A stretch of DNA of 64,000 bases from the NCBI RefSeq assembly GCF_001677475.2, contig NZ_CP015229.1. The stretch is one strand, 5' to 3'. The stretch is from Escherichia coli (GTDB lineage Bacteria; Pseudomonadota; Gammaproteobacteria; Enterobacterales; Enterobacteriaceae). Position 1 is the first letter of the stretch. Every line of letters begins with the position of its first letter. A program made the position numbers. Positions 50,501 to 53,500 of the stretch are shown here, piece after piece.

Positions 50501-53500
50501 GTAGCGACGATGCCAGTGAAACCGCCTTCAAAAGCCGCAATCCATTGTTCTAGCGCACCCTGTTGACGAGCGCGCTCGAATTCGCGTTGTAGAGTGAATT
50601 CATCAGGTAATCCCATCCGGCTACTTTCATTAACTACTTCGCGGCCCAGCGCCAGTGAATAACCGAGCTGGTGCAATTCTTCCGCAACAAGGGTGGCAGT
50701 GCGGAATTCCACCCAGCCAGACTCTGCATAGTGGTGAAAATCACGTCGCCAGTGCGATAATTTTGGGGCAAGCGAATTAATAAATTGATTCAAAGACTCC
50801 ATAACCTTTCCCGTCATCAGTAAAAAGTGTGACCCGGTTCACGTAGCGATAGTTTTTACTTATCACTAACTGATTTTTCACAGTTTTAACCGTTCATAAA
50901 TTACCCTGACACAATCATCTGCATTAAAGTAGATGCCAGTTTCTTTGGTCTGATAAATAACGGTTATCGGTGGCGTCATGGCTTTTCAGGTAAAAATTCA
51001 TCAAATTCGGGCTTTTGTTGAAGTGGCTCGTCAGGGCAGCATTCGCGGAGCGAGCCGAATGTTGAATATGTCGCAACCGGCACTGAGTAAATCTATTCAG
51101 GAGCTGGAAGAAGGGTTGGCGGCACAACTCTTTTTTCGCCGTAGTAAAGGCGTGACGTTAACTGATGCCGGTGAAAGTTTTTATCAGCACGCCAGTCTTA
51201 TTCTTGAAGAGCTGCGCGCAGCGCAAGAGGATATTCGCCAACGACAAGGGCAACTGGCAGGGCAAATTAATATCGGCATGGGGGCCAGTATTTCCCGCAG
51301 TCTGATGCCAGCTGTCATATCTCGTTTTCATCAGCAGCATCCGCAGGTAAAAGTACGCATTATGGAAGGGCAACTGGTATCGATGATTAATGAATTGCGC
51401 CAGGGGGAACTGGATTTCACCATCAATACCTATTATCAGGGACCCTACGACCACGAATTTACTTTTGAGAAATTACTGGAAAAGCAATTCGCGATCTTTT
51501 GCCGCCCGGGACATCCCGCCATTGGTGCCCGTTCGCTCAAACAGTTACTGGACTACAGCTGGACAATGCCGACGCCACACGGCAGCTACTACAAACACTT
51601 GAGTGAATTGCTTGACGATCAGGCGCAAACGCCACAGGTCGGCGTAGTCTGCGAGACGTTCTCAGCCTGTATCAGTCTGGTGGCAAAAAGCGATTTTCTC
51701 AGCATACTACCTGAAGAAATGGGCTGCGATCCCTTGCACGGACAGGGGCTGGTGATGTTGCCGGTTAGCGAAATTTTACCGAAAGCGACCTATTATTTGA
51801 TTCAGCGGCGTGATAGTCGCCAGACACCACTGACCGCGTCATTAATCACGCAATTTCGGCGAGAATGCGGCTATCTGCAAAGTTAAAACTGCATAAAAAA
51901 ATAGAGTCTGTCGACATCCGCCAGACTCTACAGTACACACAGCAGTGCATCCTCGTCTTAAATCCGGCCTGGGGTCCTGGTGACCGGTGACAGTGTTATA
52001 ACGGTTTTACCCATCCGTTGCCAATTTTCTTCAGTGACAGATTTCACGAAAATATAAGTTAAATCATTTGTCTTGTGATTGCATAATCATGCATCGTTAA
52101 TCGACGAGTAAATTTACCGGGCGAGTAGCCCGTTCGACGCTTAAACATATTGCCGAACGATTCAGCTGAGGCATAGCCCAGACGATGGGCAATTTTGGTC
52201 AACGAATATCCATCATCAAGAAGCGTCACTGCAGAAATAACGTGCATTTGCTGAATCCAGTGGCGAAATGTTAATCCCGTCTCTTTAACAAATAAGCGCA
52301 TGAGTGTACGGCTACTGACGTTAATTTTATCCGCCAGATTATCCAGTGTTGGCAGATACCCTTGGTTGTTTAGCAAATTCTCACAAAGCTGCTGTAGCCG
52401 CTCATCATTTGGCCAAGGGAGTTCAAGTGACATTTTCACCCCCATTTTTATTTCCTGAAGTATCAGTGTCTCGAGGGCTGAAAAACGTAACTGTTGTTTA
52501 TCTGTGGTACTTTGCGACGGTGGAAGTTGGTTAATTGCAATTAGTAATTCCCTTAACAGGGGTGAAATACCCGTCATGAAGCAAACTGTTCCCAGAGTTT
52601 CACTTTCCGCTTCTGAAACCAGTACGGTTTTTAAAAGTACGTTGCCTGTCGCAACAAACTTATGCGGCATTTGTGGGGGCAGCCAAAGCGCGCTGCTGGC
52701 ATGGACTAGCCAGACGCTTTCTCCAGCCCATACACGAACGACGCCTTCAGCCGGGTAAAGCAACTGGGCATAGAGATGTTTATGCCAGGGAACTGTACCT
52801 CCATTCAGATGTTCCGAATCCAGTCCGATAATGTGATGCCCTGGTGATGCTTTGGGTTGCAGTGTGATTGTCATTTACAGTAGGTATTTTGTCAGAAATC
52901 ATCAAATAAGCCATGTTAAATTTTAAATATGACGAATGCAAGTTTCCGGATATATACGGTGTAAAGAGTGATGATAATTTCTAAAAAACAGCTTATTGGG
53001 GTGGTAGCGATCGGTATTATTTTGACTGGCGTTGTCTTTTTTATCTGGTGGGTAAGCAAAGGAAGATTTATACAGACGACGGATGATGCTTACATTGGTG
53101 GTAATATCACCACGGTGGCAAGTAAAGTTTCTGGTTATATTACTGCTATAGAGGTGCGCGATAATCAGAGCGTAAAAAAAGGCGATATTATCCTGCGTCT
53201 CGATGATCGGGATTATCGTGCAAATGTCGCCAGGCTTGAGGCAAAAATAAAAAGTAGCAAAGCCAATCTCGAAAGCATTCAAGCCACTATTGCGATGCAG
53301 CAGTCGATAATTCAAAGTGCCAGTGAAACATGGCAGGCAGTAAAACATGAGAAGCAAAAGCGCCTGCGAGATACTGAACGTTATGAAAAACTCGCACAAT
53401 CAGCGGCAATATCGCAACAAATTATTGATAACGCCAGGTTTGACTACCAGCAGGTCGCAGCAAAGGAGCGCAAAGCCGCGAACGATTTCCTGGTGGAGAA

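What the first reader, a model, noticed from the sequence alone, without database searches (positions are those of the whole stretch)
51895..51988. McaS small RNA retained at the edge of the AraC/Emr island
The minus-strand sequence carries GGA motifs and a terminal hairpin with U-run consistent with McaS (a CsrA-binding regulator of csgD, flhDC and pgaA). Its promoter region now abuts the 3' end of the acquired AraC-family gene, so read-through or promoter changes could alter McaS expression in this strain.
Basis: partly seen in the sequence, partly recalled or inferred. Interest (0 to 1): 0.4.

Follow-up and report, generated by a model that had tools for sequence, protein, structure and literature searches.

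The report
McaS small RNA beside inserted efflux cassette
This is the well-known E. coli small RNA McaS, intact and with its normal promoter, in a common strain variant where an AraC-regulator/efflux-pump cassette was inserted just upstream, so the finding is correct but ordinary.

Summary
Rfam family McaS/IsrA (RF00115) matches window 51893-51988 (-) full length, at 113.5 bits (gathering 42) and E 2.5e-20. The gene lies between abgR and smrA as in K-12. It keeps all four GGA motifs, three stem-loops and the terminator.

The K-12 promoter is intact: the CRP-like site, -35 TTGGCA and -10 TATAAC are identical, and 65 of the 70 upstream bases match.

A 3.6 kb segment holding three genes (AraC, EmrA-like adaptor, DHA2 MFS pump) is a true insertion. 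It replaces 111 nt of ancestral spacer. Its homology to a Kluyvera copy stops 3 nt from where K-12 homology resumes, 106 nt upstream of McaS. The AraC gene lost its own stop and terminator. It now reads 11 extra codons into native DNA and stops 70 nt before McaS +1, with no terminator in between.

This is not strain-specific. About a quarter of 5,426 complete E. coli genomes carry this haplotype, including UTI89 and the listed O25:H4 strain. It always comes with a McaS allele that differs from K-12 at 10 positions: nine in stem-loop 1 plus C36A. McaS was detected in UTI89.

Read-through from AraC into McaS is plausible from the anatomy but untested. Novelty and interest are low.

The parts
51893..51988 (-). 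mcaS (isrA) small RNA gene, 96 nt by the Rfam model; the K-12-annotated extent corresponds to 51895-51988
   Evidence: RF00115 full-length match, 113.5 bits, E 2.5e-20. 86 of 96 bases identical to K-12.
51964..51987 (-). Stem-loop 1 (nt 2-25) presenting GGA (51977-51975) in its loop. This is the variable part: 9 differences from K-12.
   Evidence: Folding. GGA at nt 12-14 is invariant in 15 homologues while the rest of the loop varies. The 5'-most GGA is the main CsrA site according to PMC10729762.
51934..51949 (-). csgD-pairing core in stem 2 (nt 40-55, UGCACUGCUGUGUGUA), identical to K-12. GGA no. 3 lies just 5' of it (51952-51950), next to the C36A change (51953).
   Evidence: 16 contiguous predicted base pairs with the K-12 csgD 5' UTR, with the same energy (-34.5 kcal/mol) for both alleles. 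Stem 2 pairs with csgD according to PMC4824073.
51894..51931 (-). Stem-loop 3, the intrinsic terminator (nt 58-88), with GGA no. 4 in its loop (51919-51917), followed by a U-run (51900-51894)
   Evidence: Rfam structure line and MFE fold. 12 pairs kept in 15 homologues. The loop is implicated in flhDC regulation (PMC4824073).
51995..52000 (-). -10 hexamer TATAAC (-12 to -7)
   Evidence: Identical to K-12. TATAAC is named as the MG1655 -10 box in the supplement of PMC4824073.
52019..52024 (-). -35 hexamer TTGGCA, with an 18-nt spacer that carries 4 substitutions relative to K-12
   Evidence: Sequence and alignment.
52033..52048 (-). CRP-like site CGTGA-N6-TCACT, centred about 52.5 bp upstream of nt 1, identical to K-12
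   Evidence: Sequence. [quoted passage not shown] A CRP element is marked in the promoter alignment of PMC4824073.
52059..52094 (-). Last 11 codons plus stop (MHDYAITRQMI*) of the AraC ORF, encoded by native McaS-upstream DNA rather than by the cassette
   Evidence: K-12 homology runs up to 52094. Kluyvera cassette homology ends at 52097. Homologues in Kluyvera, Salmonella and Providencia stop about 11 residues earlier.
52059..52874 (-). AraC-family regulator gene (271 aa: cupin domain plus HTH), transcribed towards McaS
   Evidence: ORF list. NCBIfam and Pfam domains. A 99% identical protein cluster has 1,690 member sequences.
52095..55694 (.). Inserted 3.6 kb segment absent from K-12. It holds most of AraC, an EmrA/EmrK-like adaptor ORF (52968-53999 +), a DHA2/EmrB-family MFS pump (53996-55510 +), and 184 nt of unknown origin (55511-55694).
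   Evidence: Alignment to K-12. Protein families. 71.5% nucleotide identity over 3,450 nt to the Kluyvera cryocrescens module.
50978..51886 (+). abgR, the convergent downstream neighbour of McaS, as in K-12
   Evidence: 98.7% amino-acid and 97.8% nucleotide identity to K-12 abgR.
55705..56268 (+). smrA (ydaL), the K-12 upstream neighbour of McaS, here displaced by 3.5 kb
   Evidence: 99.5% amino-acid and 99.1% nucleotide identity to K-12 smrA.

Best explanation
The feature is the orthologue of the E. coli K-12 small RNA McaS (IsrA/IS061). It has its own CRP-activated sigma-70 promoter and an intrinsic terminator.

By homology to K-12, the RNA works in two ways. (i) It is an Hfq-dependent base-pairing RNA: stem 2 pairs with the csgD 5' UTR and triggers its cleavage, and the stem-3 loop region acts on flhDC. 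(ii) It titrates CsrA through GGA motifs presented in hairpin loops, which relieves CsrA repression of pgaA.

In this genome the gene belongs to the second of two common E. coli haplotypes. A three-gene cassette (AraC-family regulator, EmrA-like adaptor, DHA2 MFS pump) was inserted 106 nt upstream of McaS +1, replacing 111 nt of ancestral smrA-McaS spacer. The AraC gene lost its own stop codon and terminator and now ends 70 nt from McaS +1. The McaS promoter itself lies in native DNA and is unchanged in its core elements. The linked McaS allele differs from K-12 only in stem-loop 1 (GGA kept) and at C36A.

What is shown here: identity, anatomy, the insertion junction, and the population frequency. 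What is inferred: that the regulatory mechanism transfers from K-12, and that AraC transcripts end at the McaS terminator.
For: - Rfam full-length hit, 113.5 bits.
- Synteny abgR-McaS-...-smrA-dgcM-zntB-FnrS as in K-12.
- The fold gives three hairpins plus a U-run.
- Four GGA motifs at the K-12 positions.
- The CRP-like site, -35 and -10 are identical to K-12; 65 of 70 upstream bases are identical. TATAAC is confirmed as the K-12 -10 box.
- The csgD pairing core of 16 bp is intact, with equal predicted energy for both alleles.
- McaS nt 44 to the terminator is near-invariant in 15 homologues from Escherichia, Citrobacter, Pseudescherichia and related taxa. The SL1 loop GGA is invariant.
- UTI89 has the same 5' allele, and McaS was recovered there in Hfq pull-down RNA-seq (PMC4546395).
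- Insertion: K-12 homology resumes at 52094 and Kluyvera module homology ends at 52097. AraC homologues are 259-262 aa and lack the 11-residue tail. The K-12 spacer aligns with Citrobacter spacers, local score 25 against shuffles 9.7 +/- 1.6, while window 55511-55694 does not.
- Frequency: 1,316 of 5,426 genomes carry the 4.2 kb arrangement. 1,383 genomes are >=99% identical over McaS plus promoter, against 3,883 at 80-90%.
Against: - No expression data exist for this particular strain.
- The mechanism (Hfq, CsrA, csgD, flhDC, pgaA) is transferred from K-12 experiments. The SL1 loop, reported to hold the main CsrA site and one flhD-pairing site, differs at 9 positions from the allele that was tested.
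- The CRP-like site is centred at about -52.5, which is neither of the classical class I or class II distances (my computation). I could not read the primary promoter paper (Thomason 2012 is not held).
- The simple promoter and terminator scan did not flag the McaS promoter or terminator. The -10 box lacks the final T and the hairpin loop exceeds 8 nt, so those two rest on homology and folding.
Confidence: 0.93

Rival explanations
1. In this haplotype McaS is made partly or mainly as the 3' end of the AraC-regulator mRNA. The AraC transcript has no terminator of its own, runs through the McaS promoter and stops at the McaS terminator. Processing could then release a McaS-like RNA, or the read-through could interfere with the CRP promoter.
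For: The AraC stop codon is 70 nt upstream of McaS +1 on the same strand. No terminator-like hairpin plus U-run was found on the minus strand in between. The cassette's homology to the Kluyvera copy ends just before the original stop codon, so whatever lay downstream of the gene there, including any terminator of its own, was not carried along.
Against: The stand-alone promoter is fully retained and identical in its core to K-12, so an independent primary transcript is expected. Regulator genes of this type are usually weakly transcribed (general knowledge). No transcript data were available. Rho-dependent termination cannot be excluded.
Confidence: 0.3
2. The cassette is ancestral at this site and K-12-type strains lost it by deletion, so McaS was originally a 3'-UTR-associated RNA and the reader's word 'acquired' is wrong.
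For: K-12 is 78% identical to the last 36 nt of the AraC ORF. E. albertii, E. whittamii and the genome of L005 carry internally deleted remnants of the cassette haplotype, so deletions do happen and the haplotype is old.
Against: The 36 nt shared with K-12 also align, more weakly, with Citrobacter DNA that has no AraC gene. The stretch GATTTAACTT, which contains the stop codon, is largely conserved in the other homologues. K-12's 111-nt spacer is homologous to the Citrobacter spacers, z about 5-10. The foreign homology of the cassette stops exactly at the K-12 junction. AraC homologues elsewhere lack the 11-residue tail. Citrobacter, Pseudescherichia and related genomes have McaS about 250 nt from smrA with no AraC.
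Confidence: 0.08
3. The McaS copy here is a decaying relic whose function was disturbed by the insertion.
For: Ten substitutions relative to K-12 are concentrated in the 5' third, and there are 13 in the 106 nt upstream.
Against: The same allele is >=99% identical in 1,383 genomes. The SL1 stem is kept by a compensatory change (G7-U20 to C7-G20) and the loop GGA is kept. The covariance score is far above threshold. The promoter core is identical. The RNA was detected in UTI89.
Confidence: 0.02

Closest known systems
McaS / IsrA / IS061 of E. coli K-12 (Rfam RF00115; b4426)
   Same: Same locus (next to abgR, on the smrA side), same length, same three-hairpin architecture, and four GGA motifs at the same positions. 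The nt 37-96 stretch, the CRP-like site, the -35 box and the -10 box are all identical.
   Different: Nine substitutions in stem-loop 1 (loop UCACCAGGACCCCAG against GCAGAGGAGACAAU) plus C36A. There are four substitutions in the promoter spacer and one at -4. The upstream neighbour is a co-directional AraC gene instead of the divergent smrA.
McaS allele of B2 E. coli such as UTI89 (O25:H4 strain CU568-3 is 99.5% identical over McaS plus promoter)
   Same: Identical McaS nt 1-81 and promoter, and the same AraC/HlyD/MFS cassette.
   Different: UTI89 has G instead of A at one terminator-stem position, a frameshifted MFS gene, and a deletion of abgABT-abgR. The window keeps intact abg genes and K-12-like sequence downstream of McaS.
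CsrB/CsrC-type CsrA sponges
   Same: GGA motifs presented in hairpin loops; McaS titrates CsrA (PMC10729762, PMC4098024).
   Different: McaS has only four GGA motifs and about two CsrA sites, and it is also an Hfq-dependent base-pairing RNA.
3'-UTR-embedded sRNAs that have their own promoter (for example MicL in cutC, DapZ in dapB)
   Same: In this haplotype the sRNA promoter starts a few bases after the stop codon of a co-directional gene, and the sRNA terminator is the first terminator downstream of that gene.
   Different: Here the arrangement arose secondarily by insertion of a cassette. The sRNA predates the gene at this site, and a co-transcript has not been shown.
EmrAB / EmrKY MFS efflux systems
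   Same: An adaptor gene followed by a DHA2 14-TMS-type pump gene. TIGR00711 scores 401.8 bits, above its cutoff of 230.2; TIGR00998 scores 271 bits.
   Different: The match to the EmrA, EmrB and EmrA/EmrK models is below their cutoffs. The regulator is an AraC/cupin protein rather than the MarR-type EmrR. The substrate is unknown.

Membership tests
McaS/IsrA sRNA (RF00115) | Covariance-model match above the gathering score over the full model | tested here: met
   113.5 bits against 42, model positions 1-96 of 96, E 2.5e-20.
McaS/IsrA sRNA (RF00115) | Genomic position next to abgR and on the smrA (ydaL) side, antisense to both | tested here: met
   abgR ends at 51886 and McaS spans 51893-51988 (-). 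smrA is at 55705, displaced by the 3.6 kb cassette.
McaS/IsrA sRNA (RF00115) | Three stem-loops, the last being a Rho-independent terminator with a U-run | tested here: met
   MFE fold -30.7 kcal/mol with SL1, SL2 and the terminator. The terminator pairs are kept in 15 homologues. The z-score against shuffles is only -1.9, so the fold alone is weak evidence.
McaS/IsrA sRNA (RF00115) | GGA motifs for CsrA, including one in the SL1 loop and one at stem 2 | tested here: met
   GGA at nt 12-14, 24-26, 37-39 and 70-72. The first and third are invariant in 15 homologues. CsrA binding itself was not tested.
McaS/IsrA sRNA (RF00115) | csgD-pairing sequence in stem 2 and the conserved stem-3 loop | tested here: met
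   nt 40-55 are identical to K-12 and give 16 contiguous predicted pairs with the K-12 csgD UTR. The stem-3 loop is identical. The csgD UTR of this strain is not in the window.
McaS/IsrA sRNA (RF00115) | CRP-dependent sigma-70 promoter (CRP element, -35, -10 TATAAC) | tested here: met
   All three elements are identical in sequence and spacing to K-12. The -10 box is confirmed from PMC4824073. CRP dependence was not tested in this strain.
McaS/IsrA sRNA (RF00115) | Expressed, Hfq-associated RNA of about 95 nt | not testable with these tools
   Indirect only: McaS reads were found in Hfq pull-down libraries of UTI89 (PMC4546395), which carries the same 5' allele and cassette.
3'-UTR-type sRNA (co-transcribed with the upstream gene) | A transcript of the upstream ORF that extends through the sRNA to its terminator | not testable with these tools
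   The anatomy allows it: 70 nt gap, same strand, no terminator-like site. There are no transcript data.
EmrAB-type DHA2 MFS efflux system | DHA2-family permease plus a periplasmic adaptor encoded in tandem | tested here: met
   TIGR00711 scores 401.8 bits (cutoff 230.2). The adaptor matches TIGR01730 at 135.7 bits (cutoff 94.9). The specific EmrA and EmrB equivalog models are below their cutoffs.

The most novel reading that the evidence does not exclude
In the quarter of E. coli that carries this haplotype (including UTI89 and the listed O25:H4 strain), the AraC-family efflux regulator has no terminator of its own. Its mRNA would therefore carry the whole McaS sequence as its 3' UTR. McaS would then be both a CRP-driven primary sRNA and a processed or embedded 3' end of a regulator mRNA. 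That would couple the signal sensed by the AraC/efflux cassette to the csgD/flhDC/CsrA biofilm-motility switch, or conversely put the regulator mRNA under Hfq/CsrA control. The divergent SL1 loop would tune CsrA or flhD interaction differently from K-12.
Probability: 0.2. Interest if true: 0.45.

Novelty: already known. Interest (0 to 1): 0.17.

Why it matters
McaS links nutrient status (cAMP-CRP) to the choice between curli, PGA biofilm and flagella. Almost all mechanistic work used the K-12 allele and the K-12 context.

This window shows that a large minority of E. coli has a different 5' hairpin and a co-directional regulator gene ending 70 nt upstream. UTI89 and the listed O25:H4 strain, both from extraintestinal-pathogenic B2 lineages, are among them.

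That is useful for annotation: RefSeq does not annotate mcaS in UTI89. It is also a caution for anyone transferring K-12 results to such strains. It does not reveal a new kind of element.

Tried and rejected
1. My first reading was that K-12 holds a remnant of the AraC 3' end, so K-12 had a deletion and 'acquired' was wrong. I rejected this after the outgroup loci, the Kluyvera module and the C-terminal alignment showed that the AraC ORF reads into native DNA.
2. The simple promoter and terminator scan missed both the McaS promoter (the -10 TATAAC lacks the final T) and its terminator (loop longer than 8 nt). I used it only to show that no other terminator lies between AraC and McaS.
3. RNAalifold on 15 homologues recovered only the terminator. 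The variable SL1 was not aligned in register. Per-sequence folding was used instead.
4. RNAduplex of both alleles against the K-12 flhD 5' UTR gave long, GC-driven, uninterpretable duplexes. I draw no conclusion about flhD pairing of the variant SL1 loop.
5. The primary papers were not held (Thomason 2012 PMC3312966, Jorgensen 2013 PMC3672647, Bhatt 2017 PMC5827581). Promoter and pairing details therefore come from reviews and later papers.
6. Literature searches for McaS allele or phylogroup variation found nothing specific. The variability of the 5' third between species is already published (PMC4824073).

Full report
**Observation.** An Rfam scan of the whole window gives three hits above gathering score. 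One is McaS/IsrA (RF00115) at 51893-51988 on the minus strand. It covers model positions 1-96 of 96, at 113.5 bits against a gathering score of 42, E 2.5e-20. The RNA folds into a 5' hairpin, a central hairpin and a terminator hairpin followed by seven U. The fold z-score of -1.9 is modest on its own, so the covariance score and the homology are the real evidence. GGA triplets lie at nt 12-14, 24-26, 37-39 and 70-72, exactly as in K-12.

**Context.** The neighbours in order are abgA, abgR (50978-51886, +) and McaS (-). Next come an AraC-family ORF (52059-52874, -), an EmrA/EmrK-like adaptor ORF (52968-53999, +) and a DHA2/EmrB-family MFS pump (53996-55510, +). These are followed by smrA (55705-56268, +), dgcM, zntB and FnrS (58855-58972). 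In K-12 the order is abgR, mcaS, then 227 nt, then smrA. Alignment to K-12 gives two homologous blocks:
- window 51700-52094, at 93.2% identity;
- window 55695-56300, at 98.8% identity.

Between these blocks the window has 3,600 nt where K-12 has 111 nt.

**Insertion or deletion?** K-12 homology runs 36 nt into the AraC ORF, so I first suspected a deletion in K-12. Four results argue for an insertion instead.

- A scan of one genome per species with a pattern from the conserved McaS 3' half returned 12 loci. In Citrobacter amalonaticus, a Citrobacter MAG, Pseudescherichia vulneris, Escherichia sp. ESNIH1 and UBA7338, McaS lies about 250 nt from smrA with no AraC sequence. K-12's 111-nt spacer is homologous to those spacers: local score 25, 21, 18 and 16 against shuffle means of 9.3-9.7 with sd about 1.6. 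Window 55511-55694 is not homologous to them.
- The closest AraC homologues outside Escherichia (Kluyvera, Salmonella, Providencia; 70-80% identity) are 259-262 aa. They end where the window protein continues with MHDYAITRQMI.
- In Kluyvera cryocrescens the same three-gene module sits between an SDR gene and an arginase-family gene. Its nucleotide homology to the window (71.5% over 3,450 nt) spans 55495-52097. It therefore stops 3 nt from where K-12 homology begins, and 4 nt before the Kluyvera stop codon.
- The stretch GATTTAACTT, which contains the window's AraC stop codon (52061-52059), is conserved with at most one or two changes in most of the other loci, whether or not they have AraC.

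Taken together, the cassette was inserted 106 nt upstream of McaS +1. The AraC gene lost its own stop and whatever terminator followed it, and now reads 11 codons into native DNA.

The event is old. E. albertii, E. whittamii and the genome of L005 hold internally deleted derivatives that keep both cassette edges.

**Promoter.** Within the 70 nt upstream of +1 the window differs from K-12 at five positions: four in the 18-nt spacer between the hexamers, and one at -4. The following elements are identical to K-12:
- the CRP-like site CGTGA-N6-TCACT (52048-52033);
- the -35 hexamer TTGGCA (52024-52019);
- the -10 hexamer TATAAC (52000-51995).

TATAAC is the -10 box reported for MG1655, and a single change to TATAAT raises expression (PMC4824073 supplement). 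McaS transcription is activated by cAMP-CRP (PMC3634460).

**The RNA allele.** All ten differences from K-12 are in the first 36 nt: nt 6-10, 15, 16, 18 and 20 in stem-loop 1, and C36A. The SL1 stem is preserved, with G7-U20 becoming C7-G20, and the loop keeps GGA. Across 15 homologues the 5' hairpin is kept with GGA at the same loop position while the rest of it varies. From nt 44 onward the RNA is almost invariant. The variability of the 5' third between species has been published (PMC4824073). The 16-nt core that pairs with the csgD leader (nt 40-55) and the stem-3 loop implicated in flhDC control are unchanged. The 5'-most GGA is reported to be the main CsrA site and to overlap one flhD-pairing site (PMC10729762). 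A quantitative difference in CsrA or flhD interaction is therefore possible but untested. My duplex predictions for flhD were not interpretable.

**Population frequency.** Of 5,426 complete E. coli genomes, 1,316 carry the whole 4.2 kb arrangement. Over the 202 nt of McaS plus promoter the distribution is bimodal:
- 1,383 genomes are >=99% identical, and every one of these listed has the AraC gene under the match; one of them is an O25:H4 strain;
- 3,883 genomes are 80-90% identical, including K-12 at 89.2%, and none of those listed has AraC;
- only 119 genomes lie in between.

UTI89 has the cassette (with a frameshifted pump gene) and the same McaS 5' allele. McaS was among the known sRNAs recovered from UTI89 Hfq pull-down libraries (PMC4546395). 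The allele is therefore expressed in that context.

**Mechanism and what remains open.** The best-supported account is that this is functional McaS working as in K-12. It is transcribed from its own CRP-dependent promoter, binds Hfq, pairs with csgD and flhDC, and titrates CsrA through its GGA hairpins. The steps shown here are sequence identity, anatomy and conservation. The regulatory steps are inferred from K-12 work.

The AraC stop is 70 nt from +1 on the same strand, no terminator-like site intervenes, and any terminator that followed the gene at its original site was not carried along. The first intrinsic terminator after AraC is therefore the McaS terminator. Whether such a co-transcript exists, and whether it matters, needs transcript mapping. 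I give it about 0.3 for existence and 0.2 for regulatory significance.

**Verdict.** It describes a known sRNA in a common, old E. coli haplotype. The modest additions from this analysis are the exact insertion junction, the borrowed stop codon and terminator of the AraC gene, and the tight linkage between the cassette and a distinct McaS allele. Interest is low.

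Noticed in passing
window 58855-58972 (+): FnrS small RNA (RF01796, 134.8 bits), in the same place as in K-12, downstream of zntB.
   Followed up: no
window 63280-63458 (+): RalA antitoxin RNA (RF02694, 222.2 bits). This implies a Rac-like prophage with the ralR/ralA toxin-antitoxin pair at the end of the window, as in K-12.
   Followed up: no
window 52059-52068 and loci L003-L013: The motif GATTTAACTT, just upstream of the CRP-like site, is conserved with at most one or two changes in most McaS-carrying loci, including Citrobacter and Pseudescherichia. In this haplotype it supplies the AraC stop codon. It may be an unrecognised promoter-upstream element such as an UP element or a second factor site.
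   Followed up: partly
L018 (UTI89) 28968-29315 and 31426-32881: UTI89 has lost abgT-abgB-abgA and most of abgR; only fragments remain next to McaS. Its DHA2 pump gene is frameshifted. The window keeps all of these intact.
   Followed up: partly
L002 (E. albertii), L005, L006 (E. whittamii): These Escherichia genomes hold internally deleted remnants of the cassette haplotype. L005 and L006 keep the last about 35 AraC codons, and all three keep the DNA downstream of the pump gene. This indicates repeated loss of the cassette after an old insertion.
   Followed up: partly
window 55511-55694: The 184 nt between the pump gene and smrA have no detectable homology to K-12, to Citrobacter spacers or to the Kluyvera module. 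Their origin is unknown. They replace the K-12 smrA promoter region, so smrA expression may differ between the haplotypes.
   Followed up: partly
L018 (UTI89, RefSeq annotation) 29315-29489: RefSeq/PGAP does not annotate mcaS in UTI89, and the search tables list no feature under the McaS match in most genomes. The sRNA therefore goes unannotated outside K-12.
   Followed up: no
window 51700-52094 against 55695-56300: Divergence from K-12 is sharply local: 12% over the 106 nt upstream of McaS and 10% in McaS (all in nt 1-36), but 1-2% in abgR and smrA. Downstream of McaS the window is K-12-like rather than UTI89-like, which suggests a recombination breakpoint inside or just after mcaS.
   Followed up: partly
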